A DNA stretch of 28,682 nucleotides from an uncultured Verrucomicrobiota bacterium (GTDB lineage Bacteria > Verrucomicrobiota > Kiritimatiellia > CAYTQP01 > CAZOLK01), in the NCBI GenBank assembly GCA_964580325.1, contig CAZOLK010000051.1, positions 1 through 28,682 of the forward strand, given 5' to 3'. Of this stretch, positions 1-20,040 are shown one piece after another. Position 1 is the first letter of the stretch, and the number at the start of each line of letters is the position of its first letter. The notes under the pieces were generated by a model. That model saw nothing but the letters and a program-made list of their open reading frames with translations. It had not been told where the DNA came from and did not search any database. The position numbers were made by a program, and so were the translations under genes.

Positions 1-505
1 GATCCTGAACGTCGGCGGCCGGGCCCTCTGAGCGGCGGCGCGGGGGCGCCGGCCTGGGGCGTGATGCGGTCCGTCTGCGACTGATGCGTCGCATGGCGCC
101 AACACCGGCCGCGGCCTTGAATTTGCTGATGATCTCGTCTGCTACCCGATCCAGGTTGCTGCTGACCGTTCCGTCCGGTTTGGCGATATAATCGAACGCG
201 CCCAGTTCCAGCGCTTCGAACGTGGTTGATGCGCCGGTGTGGGTCAACGACGAAATCATGACCACCGGACAGATCTTCTCCTCGTTGACGATCTGTAGCA
301 CGCTCAACCCGTCCAGCTTGGGCATGTTGATGTCCAGCGATAACACATCCGGTTTCATTTCGCGGGTTTTAGTGACCGCATCCTCACCGTCGCGTGCATA
401 CCCGATCACCTCGAATGCGGGATCTTTTTCAAGCATTTTGATCAAAGTGCGGCGCATGAGCGCGGAATCATCCGCCACCAGAACTCTGATTTTTTTGTCA
501 GCCAT
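1..505 (-). CDS. cheB: CheB-like response regulator, 5' part only (receiver domain plus linker); gene runs off the left edge
   Basis: Minus-strand ATG at 503-505 follows an AT-rich leader. Translation reads MADKKIRVLVADDSALMRRTLIKMLEKDPAFEVIGYARDGEDAVTKTREMKPDVLSLDINMPKLDGLSVLQ...FDYIAKP. The receiver has the DD pair, the phospho-acceptor Asp in DINMPKLDG and the Lys in AKP. It is followed by a KFKAAAGVG linker resembling the CheB REC-to-methylesterase linker. No stop occurs before position 1. The methylesterase domain itself is not visible. Confidence 0.6.
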   Translation of the reverse strand, partial: MADKKIRVLVADDSALMRRTLIKMLEKDPAFEVIGYARDGEDAVTKTREMKPDVLSLDINMPKLDGLSVLQIVNEEKICPVVMISSLTHTGASTTFEALELGAFDYIAKPDGTVSSNLDRVADEIISKFKAAAGVGAMRRISRRRTASRPRPAPPRRRSEGPAADVQD

Positions 506-693
506 AGCCAAACTCCATAAAAAATACAAGAATGATAAACGTAATGAAATAATGAATAAGATACGAATTTTTTACCCATATCCATCAATGCCCGAGCTGT
601 TTATCCTCTGGCATGTGCGGTCAGCGCGCAGATCGCGACAGTCCGGATGTCCTCTGGAACCTATCCATATCCGTTCCGCGATCCACGCCTGTT

Positions 694-2670
694 TTATTCC
701 GCGCTGTCCTTATCTGGAATCTCTTTTTTGGCGGTTGACTTGGCACGTGATCGCGAGCCGTTCTTCCGAACCGGCTGTTTCGGCGGTTTGGCAGGTTCCG
801 CGGCCTTGGCTTCCGCCTTGGTGCGGGACTGGTGCAAAATGCTTTCCACATCCAGGAACACGATCATGCGCTTGCCGTCATCCACCTTCGCAATGCCGGA
901 AATGAAACGGTCCTTGCCATCGCCATCCACGGCTTTGGGCGGCGGCTCCACGTCGCGGTTGGCGATGTTCAACACCTGGCTCACGCTGTCTACACGCAGC
1001 CCGGTCTTGGTGCCGTCCAGGTCGACGATGATGATCCGTGTGCGATCATCCGTATCCACCGCGGGCATGGCAAAATGCGACCGCAGGTTGATCACCGGGA
1101 TCACCTCGCCGCGCAGGTTGGTCACACCCTCGACAAAGGCCGGAACGCGCGGAATGCGCGTGATTTTGGTGTAGCGGTCGATCTCGCGGATCTGCGCGAT
1201 CGGCACGCCAAACTCCTCCGCGCCCAGCTTGAACGTGACCAGCAACTGCTCGTCCATCTCGCGCTTCTTCTGCCCCTCTTCGTTCTTGTCAACGACCGCT
1301 ATGTCGCCATTGCCATTGAGCGATTCCTCGACGACCTGCATATCTTTCGACTGCAGCAACTTGCCCGAATCCAGAATCATGATCAACCGCTCGCCATCGT
1401 TGAGCTTGGCAATGCCGGCCAGCTCCGCGTTCTGACTATCGCTCAATTGCGGCGCCGGATCGGTGCACTCGTTGGGCACATTCAGCACTTCATTGACATG
1501 ATCCACGACCAGCCCCAGCAGCGTGCCGTTGGTGTCTACCACCACGATGCGCTGGTCTTCGGCAATAGCGCCGGCCACCATGTCTTCAAATCGCTGCTGG
1601 GTATGAATCACATCATCCAGCAGCGGCGCCACAACGCTCTTGAACGCACTGGCGGCTGCCTCGGCATCCTGGTTCTTGTTCAGAAAATCGGCCACGGTTT
1701 TCTGTGCTTTTTCGTTGCTGGCGCGCAGGTGCGTGATGCACTCGGTCAGCTCCTCGCTGGAACTACTCACCTGGCTCAACCAATGGCGCAGTTTTTCAGG
1801 CGCATGGGTCTTGGGCGCATCCACCTCGGGGTTCTCGCTCCAGGTGACCAGGGCCTCTTTCCACAAGCCGTAACCTTGGCGCAGACGCTCGCAGCAGGCG
1901 CGCAACTCATCAGCCAGCAGCGGCTGATTCATGACCAGGCGCAGATCCACGATGGGCAGCAGCTTGCCGCGCACCGTCAGCACGCCCAGGAGATAGCTGG
2001 GCGCTTCCGGAATCTGGCGTGCCGGTTTGACGCGCAGAATCTCGCGTACCTTGTCGATGGGGAACGCATACTCTTCGCGCGCCACCTTGAATGTCACCAT
2101 CTGGGTGATGTCCTGGGTGGCCTGGTCGCTGACTTCGTTGAGCTGTTCCTGAACCGCACTGCCTTCGGCGCGCGCCTGGGCTGCCTGGATCTGCTCCAGG
2201 TTAGCCTTGCACACTTCGACCGCGTTGAGCACAATGATGATCCGCTTGCCGTCCTCCAGCTTGACCACGCCGTCGAGATACTCTGAACTGACCTCGCCGA
2301 TCACGCTGGGCGGCGGCTCCATATTGGAGGCGGAGATGCGGTCGACCTGCCTGACCCGGTCCACGCGCAAGCCGGTTTTCTGACCGTGCAGGTCAATCAC
2401 CAGCAGACGCGTTCGATCCGTCTCATCCACGCGCTCCATACCGAAGCGCGTGCGCATGTCGACAATGGGCAAGACCGTACCGCGCAAGTTGGCCACTCCG
2501 TCCACATATTCCGGAGTCAAAGGAACACGGGCGATATCCGGAGGTCGGATAATCTCTTGGATATCCATGATATCAAACCCGAATTCTTCGTCCCCGAGCG
2601 AGAAGGAGACCAGTTGCATTTCGTCTTTCTGGGTCTTGACCTCGTCTAATTGCTCGGTTGTATTTTCCAT
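694..2670 (-). CDS. Multi-CheW scaffold protein with three CheW-like domains and a Lys/Ala/Pro-rich basic C-terminal tail
   Basis: The 658-aa ORF contains three segments of the form LVxFxLG(D/A)EE(F/Y)G(F/V)xI...IxxVPxxPxxVxGVxNLRGxV(L/I)P(I/V)(I/V)(D/N)(M/L)R, which matches the CheW fold signature. The middle domain is split by an insertion of about 110 aa. The C-terminus is AKAAEPAKPPKQPVRKNGSRSRAKSTAKKEIPDKDSAE. Confidence 0.85.
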   Translation of the reverse strand: MENTTEQLDEVKTQKDEMQLVSFSLGDEEFGFDIMDIQEIIRPPDIARVPLTPEYVDGVANLRGTVLPIVDMRTRFGMERVDETDRTRLLVIDLHGQKTGLRVDRVRQVDRISASNMEPPPSVIGEVSSEYLDGVVKLEDGKRIIIVLNAVEVCKANLEQIQAAQARAEGSAVQEQLNEVSDQATQDITQMVTFKVAREEYAFPIDKVREILRVKPARQIPEAPSYLLGVLTVRGKLLPIVDLRLVMNQPLLADELRACCERLRQGYGLWKEALVTWSENPEVDAPKTHAPEKLRHWLSQVSSSSEELTECITHLRASNEKAQKTVADFLNKNQDAEAAASAFKSVVAPLLDDVIHTQQRFEDMVAGAIAEDQRIVVVDTNGTLLGLVVDHVNEVLNVPNECTDPAPQLSDSQNAELAGIAKLNDGERLIMILDSGKLLQSKDMQVVEESLNGNGDIAVVDKNEEGQKKREMDEQLLVTFKLGAEEFGVPIAQIREIDRYTKITRIPRVPAFVEGVTNLRGEVIPVINLRSHFAMPAVDTDDRTRIIIVDLDGTKTGLRVDSVSQVLNIANRDVEPPPKAVDGDGKDRFISGIAKVDDGKRMIVFLDVESILHQSRTKAEAKAAEPAKPPKQPVRKNGSRSRAKSTAKKEIPDKDSAE

Positions 2671-2724: not shown

Positions 2725-4677
2725 TTAACCATTCTGCAACTCATCCGCCTGCGAAGCGATATCTTCGACTGCCTGGGCGATTTCCTGGGCTGCCTTGGAA
2801 CCCTCTTCGGAGGCCACGGCTGCCTCGGAGGAGGCGCGGTTCATCTGCTCGGCCGCGGAACTGATCTGCTCGCTCGCCTTGGCTGCCTCTTCCAATGCTT
2901 TCAATGATTCCTGAGCGCCCTGTTCAATCTCGCTGATGTTTTCGTCCAGGATAGAGATATCTTTGCCGATCGATTGCAGGTTGCTTGAGGAAATACGCGC
3001 ACGTTCTACTTCCTGGGCCGCGGTCTTGCCGGACAATTCGATATCGCCGGCCACCTTGTCGATCTGCAACTGGATCGCACGCACCATATCCTTGATCCGG
3101 TCCGCGTTCTCACTGCTCTCGTTGGACAGGGAGCGGATGTCGCCGGCCACGACAGAGAAACCGCGGCCGTATTCACCGGCGCGCGCTGCTTCCACGTTGC
3201 CGTTGACCGCGAGCATGTTGGTCTGAACCGTAACCATCACAATGGCGTCCACGATCTTGTCGATGGCCCGGGTCCGGTCACTCAATTCCTGTACGTTCCT
3301 AGCCGAACTGATCGAAGATTCCGCGGCATTGCCGATTTCTTCGATCAGGTTCTCCACATTCGTACAGTTGCGCTCCAGCAACTCGCGAATGGAATTCACC
3401 CGCTCCACGCCGACACGTGCGCGGTCGGACATACCCTTGGATGCGGCATTGAGTTTTTCACCCAGTTCCATAGAGGTCTGCGCAGATTTACCCTGTTGCG
3501 CCGCAGCCTTGCTGATCTGTTCGATGGCAGCCGCGATCTGGGTGGCGGCCGCACGCACTTCTTCGGCGTTGGCTGACAACTCCTCGGCGCTGGCAGCCAG
3601 TTCTTCGGCCGATTTCTGCGCGTTGGTCGACGTTTTCAGCGTTTCCGCCTGGTCGTTCAGCATGCTGGCTGCATCGCCCATTTCGGTGAACGCCTTGGCT
3701 TGCTCCTGGACCGCCTTCAACGCTTCGTTACCGGCCGATGACGCTTCTTCCGAGGCTGAGGCGATTTCCTCCGCGCCTTTCAGATAAGCGGCAGCCCCGG
3801 CATTGGCCTCTTCAGCATTTTGCAAAATTTCCTGGGTTCCGTCCATCACCTTGGCAAAATCGTCGACAATCTGGCTCAGGTCACTGTTGATGACCTTGGC
3901 TTTTTCGACTTCTTCCTGCCCTTTTTTGCCGGCAGCTTCGGCATCGTTGGCCACCACACGGACTTGCTCTTGGATCTCGTTGACCACGTCCTGGATGCCG
4001 CGCGCACTCTTCTCGCTGATCTCGGCCAGGTTGCGCACCTCGTCGGCCACCACCGCGAAACCTTTGCCATGCTCACCGGCGCGCGCCGCTTCAATGGCCG
4101 CGTTCAACGCCAGCAAGTTGGTCTGGTCCGCGATGCGCGCCACCGCGTTTACGATCTTGCCAATCTCGTCGGACTGGCGTTCCAGTTCCTGGATCATCTT
4201 GGCCGAGTCGATGTTAGCCTTGGCCGCGGTCTGCACCCCTGCGATCAAGCCTTCAATCTCGCTCGTCGTGGTTTTAATCAAATCCTGCAGTCGCTTGCAG
4301 TTCTTGATCGATGTTTCGGCGCGTTCATTGGCCACGGTAGCGGATCTATCGATCTGGTTGATCGCCGCCCTGGACTCTTCCGCGGCCGCGGAAGCCTGTT
4401 CCGCGCCTGATGCGATTTGCTGCATGGTTTTTTCAAGTTCATCGATAGCGCCCCCCGCCTGGGTCACCGCGCTGCTGACCTGCGAGGTGGCTACCGTTAA
4501 TTTCTCAGCCACGGCCTGGGCCCGGGCCAATGTACGTGCGCGAGCGCGCTCCTCGGCTTGACGCCGTGCGGCCAAGCGACCATCATCTCTTTCTTTCGGT
4601 TCATTAGAGCCGGATCCCACCTTCCCTCTTACGGGCTCATTTGGAGCGGCAAGTGTCTTCGTCATTACTTCCTCCAC
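2725..4677 (-). CDS. Soluble methyl-accepting chemotaxis protein with two tandem MCP signalling (MA) domains
   Basis: The 650-aa ORF has no hydrophobic transmembrane segment. Two highly conserved receptor hairpin-tip motifs are present: [35 protein letters not shown] and [36 protein letters not shown]. Each is embedded in a long A/E/Q-rich heptad coiled coil. Confidence 0.85.
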
Positions 4678-5046: not shown

Positions 5047-6660
5047 ATGAGTTCGGTTGTTTTTGTTTTTTTGCCGATTAGTGTTATGGAAACCGCAATA
5101 CTATTGATCGAAGGTAATCGTGTATCTGCGGCCATGTTTCGCGAAATGCTGGCTTCTGCGGAATACACGTTGACTTGGGTTCCTGACGGGTTACAGGGAT
5201 TGAAGTTGGCCCGGGAAAACAATTTTGACATGGTCTTCGTCGATATCCAACTGGCTGGCACGGATGGTCTCGAATTGCTGCGCAATCTGCGCCGCCATTG
5301 CCCCGCGTTGACGATCGTGGTTATTTCCGCCCATATCGACAGCGCAGCTATCATAACCGCCACCCGCTTTGGCGCCTACGATTACTTGGAAAAACCGATC
5401 GATCACGAGAACTTGATCCGACTGATTGATCGCGTGCAAGGCAAGATCGATGACCGATCTGACCTGGCTGTCGGCCTCGACGAACACAAATCCACGCTGG
5501 TTGGTCAGAGCCGAACCATGCGCACAGTATATAAGGAAATAGGCCGCATCGCAGCCCTGCCTGTCACGGTGCTGGTCAACGGTGAAACCGGAACTGGCAA
5601 AGAACTGGTGGCGCGCGCCATTCACGAATTCAGCGACCGCGCCGACCAACCTTTTGTGGCCATCAACTGCGCCGCGATCCCCGAATCGTTGCTGGCCAGT
5701 GAATTATTCGGTCATGAACGCGGCGCTTTTACCGGCGCTCATACCGCGCGCAAAGGGAAATTCGAACAGGCGGACGGCGGCACCCTGTTCCTGGACGAAA
5801 TCGGCGATATGGACCACCACCTGCAAGCGCGGATATTGCGTATCCTAGAGGATCGTTCGTTACAACGCCTCGGCGGCAATGGTCGTTCCACGCGCATCGA
5901 TGTGCGCATCATCTCCGCCACCCACCGCAACCTACCAACCATGATTCAAGACCATACGTTCCGCGAAGACCTCTACCATCGCCTGGCCGTCTCGGTCATT
6001 ACCCTGCCGCCATTGCGCGAGCGCCGCACCGATATCCCGCTATTGATCGATTTTTTTCTCAAGCGCTACATGAAGCAGTTCGGCATGCATTGCCCAGGCA
6101 TGGATTCGCGCGCAGTGGAATACCTGAGCCGCAAAACGTGGTCCGGCAATGTGCGCGAACTGGAAAACTACGTACGCAGCGCATTGGTACGTGCGCGCGG
6201 TTTGGCTATCACCTATGATTTGCTGCGCGAAATCGATGGCATCCTGGCAAAAAACAGCCCGAAACAGAAGATCACCGTTCCATCAGCCCTGCCCGCGGCT
6301 GAACAGACGGCTGAACCAGTCGAAACGCCTGCCATGACCGCACTGCCCATACCTGCAAAACCCCGGCAAAGCGAGCCTGCCCGTGACCCAGCCGATGAAA
6401 ATGAAGATTTATTAGATAGATGGGTACGAAAAATGCTTGATCAAGCTGAGCATGACCATGTACGGCGTAGAGCTATGGACTGCCTGGATCGTGTGCTGAT
6501 CCGCTATGCCATGCATGAGTCTCGGGGCAACCGCACTCGGGCCGCCAAGATGTTGGGCATCAACAGGCTAACTTTGCGCAAACGGCTCAGTGATCTGGGT
6601 ATCGAAGTGAAAAGCGTTTTGAAAGTACGTGGCATGGAACAGATGGTATTGGATATTTAA
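5047..6660 (+). CDS. Sigma54-dependent transcriptional activator (enhancer-binding protein of the NtrC family): receiver domain, AAA+ sigma54-interaction domain, C-terminal HTH
   Basis: The AAA+ domain carries the Walker A motif GETGTGKE and the GAFTGA motif (ELFGHERGAFTGAH). An N-terminal receiver domain contains DIQLAGTDG, and the C-terminal HTH reads RTRAAKMLGINRLTLRKRL. The start could instead be the METAILLIEG Met at 5086. Confidence 0.9.
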   Translation: MSSVVFVFLPISVMETAILLIEGNRVSAAMFREMLASAEYTLTWVPDGLQGLKLARENNFDMVFVDIQLAGTDGLELLRNLRRHCPALTIVVISAHIDSAAIITATRFGAYDYLEKPIDHENLIRLIDRVQGKIDDRSDLAVGLDEHKSTLVGQSRTMRTVYKEIGRIAALPVTVLVNGETGTGKELVARAIHEFSDRADQPFVAINCAAIPESLLASELFGHERGAFTGAHTARKGKFEQADGGTLFLDEIGDMDHHLQARILRILEDRSLQRLGGNGRSTRIDVRIISATHRNLPTMIQDHTFREDLYHRLAVSVITLPPLRERRTDIPLLIDFFLKRYMKQFGMHCPGMDSRAVEYLSRKTWSGNVRELENYVRSALVRARGLAITYDLLREIDGILAKNSPKQKITVPSALPAAEQTAEPVETPAMTALPIPAKPRQSEPARDPADENEDLLDRWVRKMLDQAEHDHVRRRAMDCLDRVLIRYAMHESRGNRTRAAKMLGINRLTLRKRLSDLGIEVKSVLKVRGMEQMVLDI

Positions 6661-6665
6661 TTTAT

Positions 6666-7343
6666 ATGGATGTGCTGATTGTAGACGACGAGGCCGACTT
6701 CATCGATGTGTGCATACGCCTGCTCGCGCGTGAACCTTACCGTATCGAAGGTGCGCAATCAGGTGAACAGGCGCTGGCCAAGCTGGCAGACAAGACCTAT
6801 CATGTACTTGTCAGCGATATTCGTATGCCCAATATGGATGGCCTTGCACTCATGCAAAAGGTTCAGTGGCTCTACCCGGAAACAGCCATCGTTGCCATCA
6901 CGGCCCATGGCGATATCGACCTTGCTGTACAGTGCATGAAATACGGCGCGCTGGATTTTCTGCAAAAGCCTGTGGGCTCAGCTAAACTGCGCGAAACACT
7001 GGCATCCGCCATGCAATCCCGCCGCACTTCGGATATGCTTGCAGAAAACCGCGATAGCCTGGATCATCAGGTCTCTACCCGTGTCATGGAGGTGTTTATC
7101 GAGGATACGGCCCGTGTCCTGGACGAGATGGAAATCCATATCCAACGCCACGAATACGGCAACGTGCGCGAACTGGCCCATTATCTCAAGAGCAGTTGCT
7201 GTACGATTTACCGCATGGGCATGGACATGGTCGAACTCTGTGTGCAGCTCATGCACATGGATGAGTACGTCACAGAGCAGACCTGGCAACTCAAACGGTG
7301 TAACCTGCTAGACCTTTTTCAAGCTGTTCCACAAGGGAAATAG
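6666..7343 (+). CDS. Receiver domain fused to a C-terminal Hpt (histidine phosphotransfer) domain
   Basis: The N-terminus MDVLIVDDEADF...VLVSDIRMPNMDGLAL...AITAHGD is a canonical receiver. The C-terminal NVRELAHYLKSSCCTIYRMGMDMVELCVQLMHMDE resembles the Hpt HxxKG helix. The start codon sits 5 nt after the EBP stop. Confidence 0.75.
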   Translation: MDVLIVDDEADFIDVCIRLLAREPYRIEGAQSGEQALAKLADKTYHVLVSDIRMPNMDGLALMQKVQWLYPETAIVAITAHGDIDLAVQCMKYGALDFLQKPVGSAKLRETLASAMQSRRTSDMLAENRDSLDHQVSTRVMEVFIEDTARVLDEMEIHIQRHEYGNVRELAHYLKSSCCTIYRMGMDMVELCVQLMHMDEYVTEQTWQLKRCNLLDLFQAVPQGK

Positions 7344-7384
7344 CATGGATATGAAACGTTTATATATAGAAAGAGGAGGTTGAG

Positions 7385-8266
7385 ATGGAACCACACGCCT
7401 ATCTAAAATCAGGCACCAACGAGTTGAAGATCATGGAGTATTCGACCAGCGGCGTTCACTTTGGACTCAACATTCTGAAGACCAGCCGCGTGGTCAGCCT
7501 GCCGCCCAAGCTGCACCAGCCCGGCAATATGCACCCCGCGGTCATTGGCCTGATGAACGATCACGGGATCATCGTGCCCGTGATCGACCTGGCCCTGTTC
7601 TTGAAGTTGAAAGATAAACATCCGGACGAACACGAACTGCGCGGGCGCATCCTGATCACCGAGTTCTTCGGCCAGGTCAACGGCTTTCTGATCGATGCTG
7701 TGCACTATGTTCACACCATCATGTGGGAACGTGTATTCGACGCGGTCGAGATCATGGGCAACCTGGTGGGCAAATACGTGATTGGCATTGTGCGGCCCGA
7801 CGAAGAAAAAATGATCCTGCTGCTCGATTACGAAAAGATCATTCTCGATTTGAGCCCCGTCATCGAAGCCAATGAGCGGCAGAAAATGGACCATGAGATA
7901 CACGGCGAAAACCGCAAATTGCTGATTGCCGAGGATTCCACCGCAGTACGCGACATGTTGGCCGTGGAACTGAGCGATATGGGCTTTGAGGTGCTGATCG
8001 CCAAGGACGGTCGGGAAGCATGGCGCATCTATGAACAGAACCGCGATCTCGCCATGGTCGTTTCCGATGTGGAAATGCCCCAACTGGAAGGGTTGAGCCT
8101 GACCAAAATGATCAAGGACGACAATCCCCAGATGCCGGTCATTGTCTACTCGTCCATTGGCGACATTGGTATGAAAAAGCGGGCCGAAGACGTACAGGCC
8201 GATGCCCATGTCACCAAGCTGAATGTCAAAGAATTGATGGACGTAACGCGAGAACTGTTGTCATGA
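7385..8266 (+). CDS. cheV: CheV-like coupling protein (N-terminal CheW domain plus C-terminal receiver)
   Basis: The N-terminal part is a CheW-like fold, and the C-terminal KLLIAEDSTAVRDML...MVVSDVEMPQLEGLSL...VIVYSS is a receiver. The RBS GAGGAGG lies 6 nt upstream. A 4-nt ATGA overlap joins this gene to the next. Confidence 0.85.
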   Translation: MEPHAYLKSGTNELKIMEYSTSGVHFGLNILKTSRVVSLPPKLHQPGNMHPAVIGLMNDHGIIVPVIDLALFLKLKDKHPDEHELRGRILITEFFGQVNGFLIDAVHYVHTIMWERVFDAVEIMGNLVGKYVIGIVRPDEEKMILLLDYEKIILDLSPVIEANERQKMDHEIHGENRKLLIAEDSTAVRDMLAVELSDMGFEVLIAKDGREAWRIYEQNRDLAMVVSDVEMPQLEGLSLTKMIKDDNPQMPVIVYSSIGDIGMKKRAEDVQADAHVTKLNVKELMDVTRELLS

Positions 8267-9009
8267 GCAAAGCCGAACAACCAGCCCAGGACCCTTTTCT
8301 GACCTACCTGGTCCATGACCTGGAACCGGCCATGGCCTCGTTTCAAACCTTGCTCCGCTTGCTCAAGCAGAAACGCTACGCCCCAGACAACCCGATGCAC
8401 GGCAAGCTGGTGCATAGTTGCGACGCGGCCCTGCAATTCAGCCTGGGGCTGTTGCGCGACATGCTCGAATTCTCCAAGATGAAACGTATGGACTGGCCTG
8501 TACATCCCGCATCCTTTGCCTGGTCGGGCCTGTTCGACGAATGCCTGGCGCTCGCGTCAGTGCTCGCCGCGGACCGGGAGGTCGCCATCAACGGCCATAG
8601 CCTGGATACGGCGGATGAGTTCATGTCCGATGCCTGCATGATCAAACGCATTGTGGTCAACCTGCTGACCAATGCCATCAAAAACGTCGACCGCGGCGAC
8701 AAAGTGCAGTTGCGCTATACCAGAACCGACAAAGGCGCACTGATCCAAGTGGAGAACAAGGTGGACGGCATGGACGAGGCGTTTTGCAACAGAATTTTCG
8801 ATGAGCATGTGCAGTTGCCTGCGCACGATGGCAAGCGCGCTTATCGCGGCGTCGGCCTGGGCTTGAGCTATTGCCGCGCCGCCTGCGAAAGATTGCGCGG
8901 TAGCATTGCCGCCGAACTGCACGACCAGGGACGGCGCTTGCGTATGGTTCTCGAACTGACTCCATGGCCATCGCAAAGCAACGGTCCTGTGGATGGAGGC
9001 GAAGACTGA
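8263..9009 (+). CDS. Small cytoplasmic histidine kinase (HisKA plus HATPase_c only, no sensor domain)
   Basis: The H-box is LTYLVHDLEPAMASF, the N-box is VVNLLTNAIKN and the G-box is YRGVGLGLSYCRA. The 248-aa protein has no TM or sensor segment. Confidence 0.8.
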   Translation: MSKAEQPAQDPFLTYLVHDLEPAMASFQTLLRLLKQKRYAPDNPMHGKLVHSCDAALQFSLGLLRDMLEFSKMKRMDWPVHPASFAWSGLFDECLALASVLAADREVAINGHSLDTADEFMSDACMIKRIVVNLLTNAIKNVDRGDKVQLRYTRTDKGALIQVENKVDGMDEAFCNRIFDEHVQLPAHDGKRAYRGVGLGLSYCRAACERLRGSIAAELHDQGRRLRMVLELTPWPSQSNGPVDGGED

Positions 9010-9010
9010 A

Positions 9011-10183
9011 ATGCTGCACCAGATCAACATCCTGCATATCGAAGACAGCCCAATCGACAGCGCCTTGATCAAAGGTATGCTAGAATTGGACGAGCAGCAG
9101 CGTTTCACCTTGGAAAACGCCAAAAGCTTTGCCGAAGCTTGCCAGTTATTCATCCGAAACAAGTACTCGTTGATCCTGTGCGACTTGAACCTGCCCGACA
9201 TCATGGGCCGCGACACCGTGATCAACTTGCAGGAATTCGCAAAGTCAACGCCGATCATCATCCTGACCGCCAATGACGATGAGGCATTCAGTCGTGAAAT
9301 GGTGCAACTGGGTGTACAGGATTACCTGGTCAAAGGACATTTCAACTCTGATCTGCTCAAGCGCGTGATCTACTATGCCATCGAACGTTTCGAGGTGTTG
9401 AAAAAACTGGAACGCAAACAGGTCCAACTGGCCCATGCCGGGCGCCTGATCTCGCTGGGCGAAATGTCCGCTGGCCTGGCCCACGAATTAAACAATCCCC
9501 TGCAGATCATCCGCTCCGCCATCGATTTAATTGAAGTCACCTTTCGCGAACCCGACTGTGACGATGACGAGATCCAGTTGATGATCGATCGCATCAAAAA
9601 ACATGTCACACGGGCCAGCAATATCATCAACAACATGCGCATGTTTGTGCGCCAGGGCAACATTGGCGAAACCCATACGGTCAACCTGCGCGAAGCCATC
9701 CTGCAGGCCATGAACTTCATGCGTCAGCGTCTCTACCAGCATAATATCGATTATCGCGAGGAATTGGCGCCCAAACCCTGGCCGGTCAAAGCCCATACGC
9801 AACGCTTTGAACAGGTGGTGATCAACTTGGTCAGCAATGCTTTTCACGCCATCGAATCCAAGGTCTATCAACGTGGAGAACCGCGCCAACTGACCATTAC
9901 CCTGCAAAACATAAGGCAACTGCCCGCTTATATGACGCAGTCGGACAGCAAACAAGACGCGTGGGTGCTGATGGAAGTGAGCAATAACGGCAGCCCCATG
10001 AGCGAGGAGCAGCAAATGAACTGCTTCGAACCGTTTTACACGACCCGTACCGAAGGCATTGGCCTGGGCCTGTCCATCGCTTCCTCGCTGATCAGGGATT
10101 TCAACGGCATCATCGATGTCTGTGCGCGCGATGACCTCACCGTGTTTGGCGTAGCCCTGTCGGCCATAGGACAAACAGATTGA
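9011..10183 (+). CDS. Hybrid kinase with N-terminal receiver followed by HisKA and HATPase_c (REC-HK)
   Basis: The receiver reads INILHIEDSPID...LILCDLNLPDIMG...IIILTAND. The H-box is GEMSAGLAHELNNPL, and the ATPase motifs are LVSNAFHAIE and GIGLGLSIASSLI. The start was chosen at the Met directly after the upstream stop (TGAAATG), which has GGAGG about 12 nt upstream. The ORF-track start at 8993 is an alternative. Confidence 0.8.
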   Translation: MLHQINILHIEDSPIDSALIKGMLELDEQQRFTLENAKSFAEACQLFIRNKYSLILCDLNLPDIMGRDTVINLQEFAKSTPIIILTANDDEAFSREMVQLGVQDYLVKGHFNSDLLKRVIYYAIERFEVLKKLERKQVQLAHAGRLISLGEMSAGLAHELNNPLQIIRSAIDLIEVTFREPDCDDDEIQLMIDRIKKHVTRASNIINNMRMFVRQGNIGETHTVNLREAILQAMNFMRQRLYQHNIDYREELAPKPWPVKAHTQRFEQVVINLVSNAFHAIESKVYQRGEPRQLTITLQNIRQLPAYMTQSDSKQDAWVLMEVSNNGSPMSEEQQMNCFEPFYTTRTEGIGLGLSIASSLIRDFNGIIDVCARDDLTVFGVALSAIGQTD

Positions 10184-10228
10184 ATTCAGCCCAAAGGGGT
10201 ATCCACGTAACAAGGCGACCCGGATAGA

Positions 10229-10741
10229 TCAGAACAAACATTCATGATCTATGGCGACCACAACCCGGCGTCTGCGTTTGCCATAGGTGATGATCCCTTC
10301 CATGGGTTCGACGAAATCATCGATGCTCTTGATCCGACCGTCGAACACCGCGGTGTTGTTGAGCGTGTGCTTTAAACACGCGTTTTTCCAGCCACCAGTA
10401 AAGATGACCTGACGCAAATAGCGGAACTTGACCAGGATCGCACGCAACCGCTCCGACTGGGCATTGACGTTATCGCCGCTGAAACAGGGCACAAAATCGA
10501 CACGGTCGCTGAACTCCCGCAGAAAGTCCGGCAACTCGGTATCGTTCTGTTGCAAGCCAAGTATAATAACCGCCATCTCACGGAAGAGCTGACTCTTGAT
10601 TTTGCGCTTCAAGAGGGTAATATACCCCTTCGGATCCGTGATCACTTTACTGCACGCCAGCGCGAACTCATCGGGATGGACCACCACGTAGGCTGTGACA
10701 GGCCCCTCGTCCACACCTGATCTGGTCCGATCACTCATCAT
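10229..10741 (-). CDS. Hypothetical 170-aa protein translationally coupled to cheR; family not recognised
   Basis: The ORF is intact and overlaps the CheR stop by ATGA, so it belongs to the same operon. I recognise no motif; it does not match CheD, CheC or CheX signatures by eye. Confidence 0.5.
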   Translation of the reverse strand: MMSDRTRSGVDEGPVTAYVVVHPDEFALACSKVITDPKGYITLLKRKIKSQLFREMAVIILGLQQNDTELPDFLREFSDRVDFVPCFSGDNVNAQSERLRAILVKFRYLRQVIFTGGWKNACLKHTLNNTAVFDGRIKSIDDFVEPMEGIITYGKRRRRVVVAIDHECLF

Positions 10742-11589
10742 GCTTTCCGATAATAATACTTATGCTTTACGCGAAAATCAAGATCCGGGACATAGTTGGT
10801 GATCGGATAAGCCAGGCTGAGAAACAGGTAACCGCCCGGCGCCAGGCTCTCGTACAACGCACGGATGACCCGTTGCTGCGCATCCATGCTGAAATAGAAA
10901 AGCACATTCTTACAGAAGACAAAGTCAAAATTGCGCATGGCGCGCAAACTGGCAAAATCGGTCAGGTTCAAACAAGAGAACTGGACCATCTGCTTGACGA
11001 TCGGTTTGACCGCATAACCTTTGACGCCGTAATCGCAATACCGGTAGCTGAACGATTCGGGCAGCGTGCGCTCCAGCTCGCGGCTGTACACGCCTTGCCG
11101 GGCGATCTCCAGGTAATGGCGCGAGATGTCCGTGGCCGCAATCATGTAGCGCCACGTCTCGTTCCGCCCTGCGTCAAGCATCAGCATGGCCAGCGAATAG
11201 GGCTCTTCGCCCGTGGAACAGCCGGCGGACCAGGCCTTCAGCAACTGGCTGCCACGAACACGCTTGGTCTGCTTGACTTCAGGCAGACACTCCTCGACAA
11301 ACACTTCCAGTTGACGCTGATCCCGAAAAAAAAAGGTTTCGTTGACGATCAGCAACTCCAGGAAATACTGGAACTCACCCTCGAGTCGCTGGTCCGCGGC
11401 CAGCAATTGATAGTATTCGTCAAAGGTCAGATCAAGTGCGCTCATGCGCTTTTGCAGACTGCTGGACAGGCCATATTGTTGCTTGGCCGCCATCTCGATG
11501 CCGGTGCGCATCTGTACCAGGGCGCCGACGGTTTCGATATCTTCAGCAACAGGTTTACGATAAGGCATAATATATTCCTTTGGAAACAA
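10738..11589 (-). CDS. cheR: CheR-type chemoreceptor glutamate methyltransferase
   Basis: The motifs ETFFFRDQ, the SAM-binding WSAGCSTGEEPYSLAM and DFVFCKNVLFYF are CheR hallmarks. Confidence 0.9.
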   Translation of the reverse strand: MFPKEYIMPYRKPVAEDIETVGALVQMRTGIEMAAKQQYGLSSSLQKRMSALDLTFDEYYQLLAADQRLEGEFQYFLELLIVNETFFFRDQRQLEVFVEECLPEVKQTKRVRGSQLLKAWSAGCSTGEEPYSLAMLMLDAGRNETWRYMIAATDISRHYLEIARQGVYSRELERTLPESFSYRYCDYGVKGYAVKPIVKQMVQFSCLNLTDFASLRAMRNFDFVFCKNVLFYFSMDAQQRVIRALYESLAPGGYLFLSLAYPITNYVPDLDFRVKHKYYYRKA

Positions 11590-11852: not shown

Positions 11853-11947
11853 TTAAATAAATAACCTTTTCGTTCTTTTTTTATCATGCTAAAACCAAAG
11901 GATCATATGGAAGTTGTCATCATATGTTTTGGGAATAAGCGGATGTG

Positions 11948-11997
<50 letters not shown>

Positions 11998-12042
11998 CAT
12001 TTTTCCCACGCTTTATTTCACCAAATGGACGGACTTGAGGAC

Positions 12043-13218
12043 ATGATGAAGAATACGGAATTATACAGACAGCTTGTTGCACATCACCGCCGGCAATACC
12101 AGTGCGACCCTTATCTAGTGGCCTATGCGCCCGGTCGCGTTGAGGTACTGGGCAATCATACCGACTACAACGAGGGCTTCGTGCTCTCCGCTGCCATCGA
12201 TACCGGCATTTTATTCGCGCTTTCCGAATCGGTTCGGGACCATTGCCGGCTTTTCTCGGTCAACATGAACGAACAGGTGACGTTTACCCCCGAATCCATT
12301 GAGCCGGACCTCCAGGCCGCGGCAGGCTGGAGCAATTACAGCAAAGGGGTTTTTAAACTGATCCAGGAGCGCCGGAAGCCGGATCGCTGTTTTGACGCGA
12401 CTTTGTGCAGCAACCTGGCCATGGGCGCCGGTTTGTCCAGTTCGGCGGCCATTGAAATATCCACGGCTCTGGCCTTGAGCACGTTTTATGGTTTGGACAT
12501 CGATCTCCTCGATCTAGCGAAAATCGGTCAGCGCGCGGAGCGCGAGTACGCAGGTGTCAGTTGCGGGCTGCTCGATCAACTCACCAGCTTGTTCGGTCGG
12601 CACAATGCCCTGGTGTACACCGATTTTCGCAGCCTGAACGTGAAACCCGTGAACATGCCGGAGCAGATCGTGTTCCTGCTTTGCAACACCAAGGTCAAGC
12701 ATAGTCTGGTGGATTCGGAGTACAATGAACGCCGCGCTTCATGCGAAAAGGCGGCCGCATTCTTCAATCAAGCGCGCGACCGCGAGATCAAGGCCCTGCG
12801 TGACGTGACTTGGGCGGAATGGGAAGCGCACCAAAACGCTATGGATCCCATGCTGGCCAAGCGCGCCGCTCATGTGATCGGTGAAAACGAGCGCGTGCGC
12901 AAAGCGCTCGATCTGCTCGAACACGATGACATGAAAGCGTTCGGTGAGTTGATGTTCGCCTCGCACGAAAGTTCGATTACGTATTTCGAAAACTCATGCC
13001 CTGAGCTGGACTTCGTGGTCTCATGCGCCCGTGACATACTGGGCGTGCTGGGCGCACGCCTGTCCGGCGGCGGTTTCGGCGGCAGTGCAATCCTGCTGCT
13101 GGAAAAACAGAACCTGGACAGCGTAGCCATGGCTCTGGAAAAGGCTTACGTGGAAAAGATCGGTCATCCCGCGGAAATCCGCACCGTACTACCTTCGGAC
13201 GGCGCCCGCATGGTTTGA
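12043..13218 (+). CDS. galK: Galactokinase (GHMP kinase family)
   Basis: The GalK signature PGRVEVLGNHTDYNEGFV and the GHMP ATP loop MGAGLSSSAA are present. The start was taken at the ATGATG preceded by GAGGA. The longer ORF-track N-terminus (from 11914) overlaps the tRNA-like fragment and is probably not translated. Confidence 0.85.
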   Translation: MMKNTELYRQLVAHHRRQYQCDPYLVAYAPGRVEVLGNHTDYNEGFVLSAAIDTGILFALSESVRDHCRLFSVNMNEQVTFTPESIEPDLQAAAGWSNYSKGVFKLIQERRKPDRCFDATLCSNLAMGAGLSSSAAIEISTALALSTFYGLDIDLLDLAKIGQRAEREYAGVSCGLLDQLTSLFGRHNALVYTDFRSLNVKPVNMPEQIVFLLCNTKVKHSLVDSEYNERRASCEKAAAFFNQARDREIKALRDVTWAEWEAHQNAMDPMLAKRAAHVIGENERVRKALDLLEHDDMKAFGELMFASHESSITYFENSCPELDFVVSCARDILGVLGARLSGGGFGGSAILLLEKQNLDSVAMALEKAYVEKIGHPAEIRTVLPSDGARMV

Positions 13219-13348
13219 ACACGCCGCTATGCCGTATTTCACCGTATCAACACGGCTAGACGGCTAGACCGGAAACATCACGTGGCGACGTCATGATGTA
13301 CATGATTTGTGCGGGGGATGAGTCGATGGAATCGATGGATTCTGATAG

Positions 13349-14641
13349 CTAGCGTAATTCATCGCGCACGAACTGGTAGAGCGCTTCCTGGCCAAAGTTG
13401 CCGGACTTGAGGACCAGCAGCAGGTTTTCACGGTCCGTGGGGAAGCAATAGGGAACGCCCGGCGCCAAGGGCAGGCCCACTTCAACGGCGCGGATGTCCA
13501 GCTTGCGGCAGACCGCACCCGAGGTTTCACCGCCGGCCACAATCAGCCGCCCGACCGCGCCGCGCTCCACCAGAGTTCCGGCTATGCCGGCCAGCGTATC
13601 GGCAATGCGCTCGCCGGTCCGGACACTGTTCAAACCCTGATCCGCGCCCATTTGCTGTATGCGCTCGATGCCGGCCCGGTCCATGGACGGGGCCTGGACC
13701 AGCGCACCGCCAGCCTGGTTCAACGCCGCTTCTGCCAGGTCCAGAACGTTGGCTGGATCATAGGTTCCTTGCACAATGGCCGGGATATCCAGGGTTAACT
13801 TTTTAAAGTCATGGGCTTCGGCATGTTGGGTCTGGCGCGCCGAGGTGGGTGACTGGCTGCCGGAAACGACCAACGTGGCGCGCGGCATAGCTTGCAGGCG
13901 CTTGCTGAAATCGAGCGGCTTGGTCTGGCACCCGTGGGCCGCGGGCAATGCTGCGGTGATGCCCGAGCCGCCGCTGATCAGGGGCCAGCCCCTGACCGCC
14001 ATAGCAATCCGGTCCAGGTCGTCCTGACAGACCGCGTCGGTCACCAGCCAGACCGCGCCTGCATCGACCAATTGCTCCAGTTTCTGGCCCAGGTCCGGCC
14101 CGCGCACCGTTTCCAGCGGAACCAGCTCTACCTTGCGGTCGGTCTGATATTGCAGCCAGCGCACCAGGTTGGCGTCGGTCATGGGGTTGAGCGGATGGTT
14201 GCGCAGAGCGGATTCGGACAGCAGTTTCCGGCCGACAAATAAATGGCCCTGGTACACCGTGCGTCCATTGACCACCAGGGCCGGGCAGACGATCGAAGCC
14301 CTGGCCAGCGGCAGTGCGCCCAGCGCCGCGTCAAGGGTCGGCCCGATATTGCCTTCGCGTGTGGAATCGAATGTCGAGCAGTACTTGATCTGGATTTGTC
14401 CCACGCCCAGGTCGCGCAGCAAACTAACGGCGCGCGATGTAGCCGCGGCAGCCAGCTCGGGCGCAACCGAGCGGTTCTGAGTTCCGATGACCACGGCCTG
14501 AAACGCGTCCAGCGCAACCGGCGGATGGGCCAGGTCATTTTCGTTCATGATCAACAGCGTGCGTGCACCTCGCTCGGTCAGCATGCCGGCCGCATCCGTG
14601 GCGCCTGTATTGTCGTCGGCGATAATGCCCCATTTCAGCAT
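13349..14641 (-). CDS. Four-carbon acid sugar kinase family protein (DUF1537; OtnK/YgbK-like 3-oxo-tetronate kinase family)
   Basis: The N-terminus GIIADDNTGATD and the C-terminal nucleotide-binding region VAGGETSGAV match the DUF1537 kinase family. Confidence 0.75.
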   Translation of the reverse strand: MLKWGIIADDNTGATDAAGMLTERGARTLLIMNENDLAHPPVALDAFQAVVIGTQNRSVAPELAAAATSRAVSLLRDLGVGQIQIKYCSTFDSTREGNIGPTLDAALGALPLARASIVCPALVVNGRTVYQGHLFVGRKLLSESALRNHPLNPMTDANLVRWLQYQTDRKVELVPLETVRGPDLGQKLEQLVDAGAVWLVTDAVCQDDLDRIAMAVRGWPLISGGSGITAALPAAHGCQTKPLDFSKRLQAMPRATLVVSGSQSPTSARQTQHAEAHDFKKLTLDIPAIVQGTYDPANVLDLAEAALNQAGGALVQAPSMDRAGIERIQQMGADQGLNSVRTGERIADTLAGIAGTLVERGAVGRLIVAGGETSGAVCRKLDIRAVEVGLPLAPGVPYCFPTDRENLLLVLKSGNFGQEALYQFVRDELR

Positions 14642-14656
14642 GGACTTGTCCTCACC

Positions 14657-15292
14657 TTACATTTGACGGTTGAGCAATTCGTTGACTTGCGCTTCGTTCA
14701 GCGCTTCACCGCCCTGGCGCACCCAGAGCCACTGGCGGCAGTTTTCCTCCAGCTCCTCCAGAATGCCCAGCGCCTTGCGCCCGGTCGGCCCCATAACCAG
14801 TACGCCATGGTTGCGCAACAACAGGGCACGGTGCTGTTGGACGCCTTGGGCAATAACCTGAGCCAGTTCCGCACTGCCTGGCGGGTGATAGGCCAGCACA
14901 GGGACGTGTCCGGCACGCATGACGAACTGCGGCGTGACCGACGGCAGCCGGTCGCCGACAGCCAGAAAAGTCGATGCGGCTATGGCGTGGCTCGGATGCG
15001 CATGCACCACACAGCGTACATCCGGACGCTGACGCAGAATCGCCAGGTGCCCGCCCTTCTCCTTGCTGGGACGCCGGTCATTGAGCGCGCAGCCATCGAG
15101 CGTCAACAGGGACAGGTTATCTATACGGATATCGGCCATACCCACGCCGGTCGGCGTAACCGCGCAGCGCCCGTCTTCGCCCGGCAGGCGGATGCTGGCG
15201 TTGCCGCTGGTCGACGTGCCCAGCCCACTGCGCGCCAGCGCGTGGCAGACATCCACCAACTCGCGCAAGGCTTGTTCGTCGCCCGTGTTCAT
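14657..15292 (-). CDS. Class II aldolase/adducin-family protein (OtnC/FucA-like)
   Basis: The motifs GNASIR, PSKEKGGH and VVHAHPSHA are typical of class II aldolases. The start was taken at MNTGDEQ, which overlaps the upstream stop by ATGA. The longer ORF-track N-terminus is unlikely. Confidence 0.7.
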   Translation of the reverse strand: MNTGDEQALRELVDVCHALARSGLGTSTSGNASIRLPGEDGRCAVTPTGVGMADIRIDNLSLLTLDGCALNDRRPSKEKGGHLAILRQRPDVRCVVHAHPSHAIAASTFLAVGDRLPSVTPQFVMRAGHVPVLAYHPPGSAELAQVIAQGVQQHRALLLRNHGVLVMGPTGRKALGILEELEENCRQWLWVRQGGEALNEAQVNELLNRQM

Positions 15293-16616: not shown

Positions 16617-16642
16617 ATCGTTTTCCTTACTATTCTACTTTT

Positions 16643-19919: not shown

Positions 19920-20040
19920 TGTGACAACGAAACTGCCGTGGAGATGTCGGATTACGTTCGTAGTCCAGGCTTTAGCCTGCTGAATGCTTCGTGCCTGCAA
20001 ACAACAGAAAATCCACGGCAGTTTCGTTGTCATAGCATCT
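19920..20040. repeat. Perfect 21-bp inverted repeat (arms 19920-19940 and 20020-20040) around a 79-bp spacer, in a low-GC non-coding stretch
   Basis: TGACAACGAAACTGCCGTGGA and its exact reverse complement TCCACGGCAGTTTCGTTGTCA. The spacer contains the small hairpin CCAGGCTTTAGCCTG. Confidence 0.85.

What the first reader, a model, noticed from the sequence alone, without database searches (positions are those of the whole stretch)
694..2670. Three-CheW-domain scaffold with an interrupted middle domain and a histone-H1-like basic tail
Most CheW proteins are single-domain. This ORF encodes three CheW folds in one chain, which could substitute for the CheW-like P5 domain of CheA in array assembly. 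The middle domain carries a helical insertion of about 110 aa (SSSSEELTECITHLRASNEKAQKTVADFLNK...). The C-terminus is a low-complexity AKAAEPAKPPKQPVRK... tail that resembles DNA- or polyanion-binding tails (AlgP/H1-like).
Basis: seen in the sequence. Interest (0 to 1): 0.6.

Follow-up and report, generated by a model that had tools for sequence, protein, structure and literature searches.

The report
Triple-CheW adaptor with degenerate zinc-sensor insert
This gene encodes the already known triple-CheW scaffold (CheW3) of F9-class cytoplasmic chemoreceptor arrays; the helical insertion in its middle domain descends from a zinc-binding sensor domain (CZB) but has lost its metal ligands, and the basic tail is a lineage-specific disordered extension.

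Summary
ORF 694..2670 (-) encodes 658 aa with three CheW folds, D2 is split by a ~120-aa four-helix module, and a 43-aa K/A/P-rich disordered tail follows D3. It is not a frameshift fusion: hundreds of homologues share the architecture.

The interpretation as unusual is only partly right. A concatenated triple CheW (CheW3) next to a two-signalling-domain receptor (DosM) is the published signature of the F9 chemosensory class (V. cholerae VC1402/VC1403). The window has dosM-cheW3-cheB in that order. Relatives continue with HEAT-cheR-cheY-cheA.

The added result concerns the insertion. In distant CheW3 relatives, the insertion at the same site is a bona fide CZB domain (Pfam above threshold, H/C/H/H ligands). 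The query's clade is homologous to it (hhalign 94.5-98.6%), but the ligands are replaced by Y267/E292/N319/Q323 and the motif Gly by R295. A different polar set (C260, R264, R316, S303-305, K324) is conserved instead. CheW-CZB is a known architecture. I found no description of its nesting in D2 of CheW3, or of a ligand-less derivative. One paper apparently counted the split domain as "quadruple CheW".

The tail has no KPAA-type repeats and is absent from most close relatives. Basic tails do recur in about 20% of distant CheW3 representatives.

The parts
694..2670 (-). cheW3: complete 658-aa triple-CheW adaptor ORF (stop codon at 694-696)
   Evidence: RBS-like AAGGA upstream of the ATG
2209..2622 (-). 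CheW domain 1 (aa 17-154), intact; NLRG receptor-binding motif present (N61-G64)
   Evidence: Pfam 128.8 bits, profile 1-131; own HMM 210 bits; AF2 beta fold
2110..2208 (-). Linker 1 (aa 155-187), poorly conserved, low pLDDT
1921..2109 (-). CheW domain 2, N-terminal half (aa 188-250; profile positions 1-61), includes invariant T232-V233-R234-G235
1555..1920 (-). Nested four-helix bundle (aa 251-372), a CZB-derived module without Zn ligands. Ligand-equivalent positions are Y267, E292, N319, Q323, and the motif Gly is R295. Residues conserved in the clade: C260, R264, Y267, W270, E292, R295, W297, S303-305, E310, R316, N319, K324
1348..1554 (-). CheW domain 2, C-terminal half (aa 373-441; profile ~58/82-136), begins with invariant EDQRIVVV
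1252..1347 (-). Linker 2 (aa 442-473), poorly conserved, low pLDDT
829..1251 (-). CheW domain 3 (aa 474-614), intact; NLRG motif N518-G521
   Evidence: Pfam 141.4 bits, profile 2-136; own HMM 212 bits; AF2
697..828 (-). C-terminal K/A/P-rich tail (aa 615-658), predicted disordered. The 43 residues from 616 have net charge +7
2725..4677 (-). dosM-like receptor immediately upstream: 650 aa, two MCPsignal stretches, no sensory or transmembrane domain found by Pfam, net charge -39
1..505 (-). 5' part of cheB (REC domain plus linker), cut by the end of the contig. It lies immediately downstream of cheW3 after a ~188-nt spacer
   Evidence: orthologous position is CheB (REC + CheB_methylest) in L041, L037 and L079

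Best explanation
The gene is the CheW3 adaptor of an F9-class chemosensory system. Its three CheW domains each keep the receptor-binding xxRG motif. By analogy with V. cholerae VC1402, they are inferred to occupy several CheW positions in the hexagonal baseplate. That baseplate clamps the signalling tips of the adjacent soluble, double-ended receptor (DosM-like, 2725..4677), giving a cytoplasmic two-layered array. CheA-F9, CheY, CheR and CheB are inferred to complete the pathway. Only the start of cheB is on this contig.

The ~120-aa insertion in the loop after the 'VDLR' strand of domain 2 is a four-helix bundle that descends from a CZB (chemoreceptor zinc-binding) sensor domain. In other CheW3 lineages this nested CZB keeps its His/Cys/His/His zinc site, so it probably feeds a zinc/oxidant (HOCl-type) signal directly into the adaptor. 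In the clade that contains this window the metal ligands are gone (Y267, E292, N319, Q323; motif Gly is R295), so classical Zn/HOCl sensing is very unlikely.

I infer that the bundle is retained as a structural or interaction module of the baseplate. A CZB-like dimer contact between adaptors, or a repurposed polar pocket, are both possible. The C-terminal basic tail is a lineage-specific disordered appendage and is not part of the conserved mechanism.

Shown here: the domain anatomy, the homology chain, ligand loss, conservation and synteny. Inferred: array role, CZB signalling in relatives, and the present function of the degenerate bundle.
For: Three CheW folds with a split D2. Adjacent two-MCPsignal receptor. 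Downstream cheB.

The literature defines F9 by DosM plus a concatenated triple CheW and the gene order [DosM W3 B. R Y A] (PMC7534058; PMC9321776). Orthologous loci L041 (62% identity) and L037 (Paludibaculum, 50%) carry dosM-cheW3-cheB-HEAT-cheR-cheY-cheA.

The insertion is present in all 120 close homologues. It occurs at the same HMM position (~60-70) in 46 of 136 classifiable proteins (the ~50%-identity representatives plus six close homologues).

Pfam CZB is above its gathering score in the insertion of P0127, P0142, P0149, P0161, P0133 and P0173. The profile of these insertions hits the DgcZ CZB crystal structure 3T9O at E=2.3e-4, aligned across the HxxW, CxFGxW and HxxxH motifs.

hhalign of query-clade insertions against CZB-positive insertions gives 98.6% (E 1.4e-15). 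On the helical core alone it gives 94.5% (E 7.5e-8), against 0.2% for a reversed decoy.

Against: The query insertion itself gets no Pfam CZB hit even at E<=1. Its clade profile finds no CZB among PDB sequences. The link to CZB is therefore transitive, through CZB-positive orthologues.

The contig ends inside cheB, so cheA, cheY and cheR of this cluster are not seen. A partial F9 set cannot be excluded.

I had no model coordinates, so the orientation of the bundle relative to the receptor and CheA interfaces is unknown. No multimer prediction was possible, so dimerisation is conjecture.

The NJ tree did not resolve a single origin of the insertion (13 state changes).

I did not have the V. cholerae VC1402 sequence. 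Its unsplit D2 is inferred only from its 'W3' label in Mo et al.
Confidence: 0.78

Rival explanations
1. The degenerate bundle has been repurposed as a sensor. The conserved polar and Cys residues that replace the Zn site (C260, R264, Y267, E292, R295, S303-305, R316, N319, K324) would form a new pocket for a different cytoplasmic signal (another metal, an anion or metabolite, or redox via C260). That signal would modulate coupling in the F9 array through CheW domain 2.
For: Conservation in the insertion is concentrated on helices 1-3 and the 2-3 loop, the elements that build the Zn site in CZB. It includes many polar or charged residues (R316 in 120/120, N319 in 116, E292 in 107, R295 in 110, C260 in 105). 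The insertion is more conserved (0.69) than the linkers (0.48-0.51). Mo et al. report that 98% of DosM homologues have no sensory domain and that F9 arrays need an outside input.
Against: No ligand is known. Polar conservation can equally reflect a buried H-bond or salt-bridge network replacing the metal, or a protein-protein interface. The 120-sequence sample is dominated by Bryobacterales, which inflates conservation. Without coordinates it is unknown whether these residues cluster.
Confidence: 0.25
2. The insertion is a helical module unrelated to CZB. It would have been acquired independently, with only convergent resemblance as a generic four-helix bundle.
For: No direct Pfam CZB hit for the query. 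No CZB in the PDB sequence search with the clade profile. Fold searches are dominated by generic bundles.
Against: The insertion point in D2 is the same in both groups (HMM position ~60-70). Length and four-helix layout match. Profile-profile probability is 94.5% on the core alone, against 0.2% for the decoy. The residue-by-residue register aligns HxxW/YxxW, CxLGxW/ExLRxW and HxxxH/Nxxx. Host protein and operon context are orthologous.
Confidence: 0.07
3. The protein has four CheW domains (a 'W4' adaptor), or it is an assembly or frameshift artefact fusing separate cheW genes.
For: HMMER reports four CheW stretches. Mo et al. list the Paludibaculum orthologue as quadruple CheW.
Against: The two middle stretches are complementary halves of one profile (1-61 and ~58/82-136). 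AF2 folds them into one domain. More than 100 full-length homologues from independent assemblies share the architecture without gaps.
Confidence: 0.02
4. The C-terminal tail is a functional H1/AlgP-like polyanion (DNA or polyphosphate) binding element. It would anchor or position the cytoplasmic array, for example on the nucleoid.
For: Net charge +7 over 43 residues and K/A/P-rich composition. The closest relative P0002 has a compositionally similar tail. 29 of 147 distant CheW3 representatives have basic C-terminal extensions, and P0134 has true AKAP/AKAK repeats. The array proteins are otherwise very acidic (DosM -39, CheW3 core -33).
Against: There is no repeat structure (a single KPPK). 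The tail is short and absent from 118 of 120 close homologues. No binding data exist. A basic tail could equally contact the acidic receptor bundle, membranes or a ParA-type partner.
Confidence: 0.12

Closest known systems
CheW3 (VC1402, 'concatenated triple CheW') of the Vibrio cholerae cluster I / F9 chemosensory system, partnered with DosM (VC1403)
   Same: Three CheW domains in one chain. The gene lies immediately downstream of a soluble receptor with two signalling domains and immediately upstream of cheB. Orthologous clusters continue with hypothetical/HEAT, cheR, cheY and cheA, as in VC1400-VC1397.
   Different: The window's D2 carries a ~120-aa nested helical bundle. V. cholerae is catalogued as plain 'W3', so its D2 is inferred to be unsplit, but I did not check the sequence. 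About two thirds of the representatives most similar to the query (90 of 136) lack the insertion. The window's protein also has a basic tail. CheA, CheY and CheR are not visible on this contig.
CheW-CZB proteins (architecture class in Perkins et al. 2021, PMC8262984; listed by Muok et al. 2023, PMC10653840)
   Same: A CZB-type four-helix bundle combined with CheW domains. Distant orthologues of the query (for example P0161, P0127, P0142) are CheW-CZB proteins by Pfam, with H/C/H/H ligands.
   Different: The query fails the Pfam CZB model and lacks all four ligands and the motif glycine. The papers I could read treat 3xCheW and CheW-CZB as separate classes. They do not say that the CZB is nested inside D2 of the F9 CheW3.
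CZB domain of E. coli DgcZ (PDB 3T9O) and H. pylori TlpD
   Different: DgcZ and TlpD bind Zn through 3His/1Cys and sense Zn/HOCl. The query has Y/E/N/Q at these positions and Arg in place of the conserved Gly. In DgcZ and TlpD the CZB is terminal, not nested in another domain.
CheWS (CheW-CheR-like) of Treponema denticola: a sensor domain fused to CheW (PMC10653840)
   Same: The concept of signal input or an accessory module delivered through the adaptor rather than the receptor.
   Different: A different accessory domain (CheR-like, SAM-binding), fused at the C-terminus. It has a single CheW domain and belongs to the F2 class.
Split CheW domain in some Desulfobacteraceae CheA proteins (Berry et al. 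2023, PMC10782961)
   Same: An insertion in the middle of a CheW domain makes HMMER report one extra CheW domain. The same artefact explains the 'W4' label for the Paludibaculum orthologue.
   Different: That insertion is ~50 aa, lies in CheA, and its nature is not described.

Membership tests
F9-class CheW3 adaptor | Three CheW domains concatenated in one polypeptide | tested here: met
   Pfam, own HMM and AF2: D1 17-154, D2 188-250 plus 373-441, D3 474-614
F9-class CheW3 adaptor | Encoded next to a DosM-type receptor (two MCP signalling domains, no sensor domain) | tested here: met
   The gene at 2725..4677 (-) has two MCPsignal stretches and no other Pfam domain
F9-class CheW3 adaptor | Cluster order DosM-W3-B-(x)-R-Y-A with an F9-type CheA | tested here: inconclusive
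   The window shows dosM-cheW3-cheB and then the contig ends. Orthologous loci L041, L037 and L079 have the full order. I did not classify CheA as F9 by phylogeny.
F9-class CheW3 adaptor | Forms the baseplate of a cytoplasmic double-layered array | not testable with these tools
   Requires cryo-ET. Known only for V. cholerae.
CZB domain (PF13682) | Match to the Pfam CZB model at or above the gathering score (29.4 bits) | tested here: not met
   No CZB hit for the query or its fragments at E<=1. None for P0006 or P0121. Met by the distant orthologues P0127, P0142, P0149, P0161, P0133 and P0173.
CZB domain (PF13682) | 3His/1Cys zinc ligands in the HxxW ... CxLGxW ... HxxxH motif, with the conserved Gly | tested here: not met
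   The query has Y267, E292, N319, Q323 and R295 in place of Gly. Clade consensus is Y/E/N/hydrophobic with R/K.
CZB domain (PF13682) | Four-helix-bundle fold similar to DgcZ CZB | tested here: inconclusive
CZB domain (PF13682) | Common descent with bona fide CZB domains | tested here: met
   hhalign 98.6% with flanks and 94.5% on the core alone, decoy 0.2%. The CZB-positive profile hits 3T9O at E 2.3e-4. Same insertion site and operon context.
AlgP / histone H1-like basic repeat tails | Tandem KPAA/AKAP-type repeats forming a long Lys/Ala/Pro array | tested here: not met
   One KPPK and no periodicity. TRF finds no repeat in 694-830. The tail is only 43 aa.
AlgP / histone H1-like basic repeat tails | DNA or polyanion binding | not testable with these tools
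   Needs EMSA or polyP binding with the tail peptide.

The most novel reading that the evidence does not exclude
In a large, mostly uncultured clade (Acidobacteriota/Bryobacterales, Verrucomicrobiota, Riflebacteria and others), the F9 adaptor CheW3 carries a CZB-derived bundle nested in its middle CheW domain. The Zn site has been replaced by a different, strongly conserved polar/Cys cluster (C260, R264, Y267, E292, R295, R316, N319). This could be a new adaptor-borne sensory or lattice-stapling site. It would give the otherwise input-less DosM arrays their signal, or provide CheA-independent cross-links. Together with the Zn-competent CheW3-CZB relatives, it would mean that F9 systems sense through the adaptor rather than the receptor.
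Probability: 0.25. Interest if true: 0.65.

Novelty: new variant of a known kind. Interest (0 to 1): 0.42.

Why it matters
The biological role and input signal of F9 cytoplasmic arrays are still unknown. The reviews read here say so, and nearly all DosM receptors lack a sensor domain.

A sizeable fraction of CheW3 adaptors carry a CZB, or a CZB-derived bundle, nested in domain 2. Among the classifiable sequences most similar to this one, that fraction is 46 of 136. This gives a concrete, testable route for signal entry (Zn, HOCl or redox in the ligand-bearing forms). The ligand-less clade is a natural comparison: the same module without metal chemistry.

The result also corrects a likely annotation artefact, where split-D2 CheW3 was counted as 'quadruple CheW'. 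It connects two architecture classes, 3xCheW and CheW-CZB, that the literature I could access lists separately.

For this particular window the protein is otherwise an ordinary member of a known system.

Tried and rejected
1. Frameshift or fusion artefact: rejected, because the architecture is conserved in hundreds of homologues.
2. Four true CheW domains: rejected, because the two middle stretches are complementary half-profiles and form one AF2 fold.
3. Direct Pfam and NCBIfam annotation of the insertion: nothing found.
4. PDB sequence search with the query-clade insertion profile: only spurious helical proteins.
6. Obtaining the V. cholerae VC1402 sequence or domain coordinates: not possible. 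The genome scan patterns were clade-specific, the supplement shows only an image, and Briegel 2016 is not held. Its status was inferred from the 'W3' label.
7. Taxon names via cluster look-up: uninformative.
8. Single origin of the insertion: the crude NJ tree shows strong clustering but 13 state changes, so this is unresolved.
9. H1/AlgP repeat periodicity in the tail: none.
10. An early reading of H296/C311/H314 in the query as CZB ligands: rejected, because they are not conserved and do not align with the ligand columns.
Full report
**1. Observation.**
The window encodes a 658-aa protein on the minus strand at 694..2670. The ATG start is preceded by an AAGGA ribosome-binding-like site. Pfam finds only CheW (PF01584), in four stretches totalling 360 bits.

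Scanning fragments separately, and scanning with a CheW HMM that I built from D1 and D3 of homologues, gives these boundaries:
- D1 is aa 17-154 (profile 1-131).
- D3 is aa 474-614 (profile 2-136).
- The middle domain is in two complementary halves: aa 189-250 (profile 1-61) and aa ~373-441 (profile ~58/82-136).

AlphaFold2 on a 38-sequence alignment (mean pLDDT 73) gives three beta-rich CheW folds. Between the halves of D2 it gives four helices (252-279, 289-300, 306-332, 336-372) with pLDDT 85-95. The linkers and residues 616-658 are below 50.

**2. Not an artefact.**
A search of 5.8 billion proteins returned 815 homologues at E<=1e-10. The best 120 are 547-658 aa, 48-62% identical, and cover 91-97% of the query. 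In their alignment the insertion is present in every sequence (107-126 aa, essentially no gaps), while the tail columns are 71-99% gaps. Seventy-eight genomic loci from independent assemblies encode the same architecture. A frameshift fusion of separate cheW genes is excluded.

**3. What the protein is.**
The gene immediately upstream (2725..4677, minus) is a 650-aa soluble receptor with two MCPsignal stretches and no other domain. The gene immediately downstream starts at 505 and runs off the contig. It begins with a CheB-type receiver domain.

The literature defines exactly this pair. [quoted passage not shown] The array is held together by DosM (VC1403), a receptor with two signalling domains (PMC7534058). 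Mo et al. call the pair DosM/CheW3 the signature of F9. They give the gene order [DosM W3 B. R Y A] and find full F9 clusters in 64 of 2781 species (PMC9321776).

The closest relative of the query (L041, Verrucomicrobiota MAG, 62% identity) and the Paludibaculum fermentans orthologue (L037, 50%) carry dosM-cheW3-cheB-HEAT repeat-cheR-cheY(-cheY)-cheA. This is collinear with VC1403-VC1397.

The window's protein is therefore a member of a known family in its known context. Whether this contig's cluster is full or partial cannot be seen.

**4. What the insertion is.**
An exhaustive HMMER search of 1.84 billion cluster representatives gave 706 proteins at E<=1e-30. Mapping CheW domain coordinates on the best 150 showed two sub-architectures:
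- an intact 3xCheW form of ~490-560 aa;
- a form of ~600-690 aa in which D2 is split at HMM position ~60-70 by 85-125 residues.

In a set of 136 classifiable sequences, 90 are intact and 46 are split. This list is ranked by similarity to the query, so the true proportion in the family is unknown.

Aligning the insertions revealed the pattern HxxW ... Cx[LF]GxW ... HxxxH in the more distant ones. Pfam confirmed it. CZB (PF13682, gathering score 29.4) scores 37.5, 37.0, 35.3, 35.9, 34.1 and 32.4 bits in P0127, P0142, P0149, P0161, P0133 and P0173, exactly inside the D2 insertion. It scores nothing in the query, P0006 or P0121. A profile of the CZB-positive insertions hits the crystal structure of the DgcZ CZB domain (3T9O) at E=2.3e-4, aligned over all three motif elements.

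Profile-profile comparison of the query-clade insertions with the CZB-positive insertions gives 98.6% probability (E 1.4e-15). Those alignments contained short CheW flanks, so I repeated the comparison on the helical core only. That gave 94.5%, E 7.5e-8, over 93 columns, against 0.2% for a reversed decoy.

The CZB-positive adaptor P0161 lies in the same cluster order, next to a two-MCPsignal receptor. So does an intact-form adaptor.

**5. Ligand loss.**
At the four zinc-ligand columns the split-D2 representatives show HCHH (8), xCHH (6), HCDH (2) and xSHH (2), plus many degenerate combinations. The query has Y267, E292, N319 and Q323. The motif glycine, described as almost universally conserved for steric reasons (PMC8262984), is R295.

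Within the 120 close homologues the replacements are themselves conserved:
- Y267 in 113;
- E292 in 107 (plus 7 D);
- R295 in 110 (plus 10 K);
- W297 in 118;
- N319 in 116.

Other conserved residues are C260 (105), R264 (106), S303-S305 (109-116), E310 (119), R316 (120/120) and K324 (107). This sample is dominated by Bryobacterales, which inflates the conservation figures.

Mean conservation of the insertion (0.69) lies between the linkers (0.48-0.51) and the CheW cores (0.86-0.92). On a neighbour-joining tree of the CheW cores, the query's clade is monophyletic and uniformly ligand-less. Split and intact states are strongly clustered (13 changes against ~38 when shuffled), but a single origin is not resolved.

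The query therefore fails the membership tests for CZB (model score, ligands, glycine) while being demonstrably derived from it.

**6. Mechanism.**
*Shown here:* the anatomy, the homology, the ligand loss and the synteny.

*From the literature:* CheW3, with CheA, forms the baseplates of the V. cholerae F9 array. DosM is essential for that array, while CheA is not essential for its formation. DosM almost never has a sensor domain. CZB domains are Zn/HOCl sensors in TlpD and DgcZ, and CheW-CZB is a recognised but unstudied architecture.

*Inferred:*
- In ligand-bearing lineages the nested CZB could inject a Zn/oxidant signal into the array through adaptor domain 2.
- In the window's clade that chemistry is lost, and the bundle persists as a structural or interaction module. 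It may alternatively have acquired a new site built from the conserved polar/Cys cluster.
- All three CheW domains keep the xxRG motif (NLRG in D1 and D3, TVRG in D2). From my knowledge of E. coli CheW R62, this suggests that each can still bind a receptor tip.

I could not obtain model coordinates or run a multimer prediction. The orientation and oligomeric state of the bundle are open.

**7. The tail.**
The tail is predicted disordered. It has no KPAA-type periodicity and no DNA tandem repeat. Among the 120 close homologues it is shared only, in looser form, by the nearest relative P0002. The H1/AlgP analogy is therefore compositional only.

Across the diverse representatives, however, 64 of 147 have at least 30 residues after D3. 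Of these, 29 are basic at the end, several finish with ...LKIEE or ...LKRAR, and P0134 has genuine AKAP/AKAK repeats. DosM (net -39) and the CheW3 core (-33) are very acidic. A recurrent basic appendage may have a role, but nothing here tests one.

**8. Relation to the literature, and novelty.**
Triple CheW plus DosM is already known. CheW-CZB is already listed as an architecture. In the papers I could search I did not find any of the following:
- that the CZB of CheW-CZB proteins is nested inside D2 of the F9 CheW3;
- that a large clade carries a ligand-less derivative;
- any mention of a split CheW domain in CheW3.

Mo et al. list Paludibaculum fermentans as [DosM W4 B...], a "quadruple CheW". 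The Paludibaculum orthologue examined here has three folds with a split D2 that yields four HMM stretches. "W4" is therefore probably the same counting artefact that Berry et al. described for some CheA proteins. Mo et al. did note CZB fused to two DosM homologues, which fits CZB as a recurrent F9 input module.

I rate this a new variant of a known kind, of moderate interest. The window's protein is an ordinary F9 adaptor. The family-level observation about the nested CZB and its degenerate form is the part worth following up.

Noticed in passing
window 5047-11589: A second signalling gene group lies divergent from dosM. It comprises a sigma-54 activator with a receiver domain (5047-6660 +), a response regulator (6666-7343 +), a CheV-like CheW-REC protein (7385-8266 +), a HATPase-only protein (8263-9009 +), a REC-HisKA-HATPase hybrid kinase (8993-10183 +), a 170-aa ORF with no Pfam hit (10229-10741 -) and a CheR methyltransferase (10738-11589 -). 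Whether this CheR and CheV serve the F9 array is unknown.
   Followed up: partly
proteins P0173, P0184, P0204 (representative library): In a few CheW3 relatives, D3 is also split at the same profile position (~65-70) by a ~105-120-aa helical insertion that lacks Cys/His ligands. P0173 and P0184 have both D2 and D3 split (760-768 aa). P0247 has a small D1 insertion as well.
   Followed up: partly
C-termini of P0204, P0147, P0137, P0159, P0184, P0210, P0183, P0152, P0155, P0135 and others: Many distant CheW3 proteins end in a Lys/Arg cluster followed by a short ...L-K-I-E-E...L-K-I-A-E or ...L-K-R-A-R terminus. P0134 has AKAP/AKAK repeats. This could be a conserved C-terminal docking peptide. 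It is absent from the query, which ends ...KKEIPDKDSAE.
   Followed up: partly
L037:9983-11866 (Paludibaculum fermentans) and Mo et al. 2022, S6 Table: The adaptor catalogued as 'W4, quadruple CheW' in P. fermentans is, in the strain held here, a three-fold CheW3 with a split D2 and Y/E/N/I at the CZB ligand positions. The W4 label is probably a domain-counting artefact.
   Followed up: yes
L079:3359-6024: Directly upstream of the F9 cluster with the CZB-positive CheW3 (P0161) lie a ParA/MipZ-like ATPase, a TPR protein and an HSP70/MreB-like protein. From memory, this resembles ParA-type positioning of cytoplasmic chemoreceptor clusters (PpfA in Rhodobacter sphaeroides).
   Followed up: no
L041:13436-14641, L037:12974-14053, L079:10959-12032: A HEAT-repeat protein of ~360-400 aa is conserved between cheB and cheR in F9 clusters of very different phyla. 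It sits at the position of the V. cholerae 'hypothetical' VC1400. Its role in F9 systems appears undescribed in the papers read.
   Followed up: no
window 506-693: The spacer between cheW3 and cheB is unusually long, ~188 nt here and ~204 nt in the closest relative L041. In Paludibaculum (L037) the two ORFs abut or overlap. I did not examine it for RNA structure or promoters.
   Followed up: no
window 11914-28640: The rest of the contig is carbohydrate metabolism: galactokinase-like, four-carbon acid sugar kinase-like (SBD_N/NBD_C), class II aldolase, Asp/Glu racemase-like, GH2 with a malectin domain, DUF5696/GH129-like, and beta-helix GLAA-B-like proteins. This would fit a polysaccharide-degrading organism. 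The organism was not identified, and the nearest CheW3 is from a Verrucomicrobiota MAG.
   Followed up: partly
window 2756-2795: A 21-bp unit is repeated 1.9 times (78% match) near the 3' end of dosM. It probably reflects the repetitive A/E/S-rich coiled-coil coding sequence.
   Followed up: no
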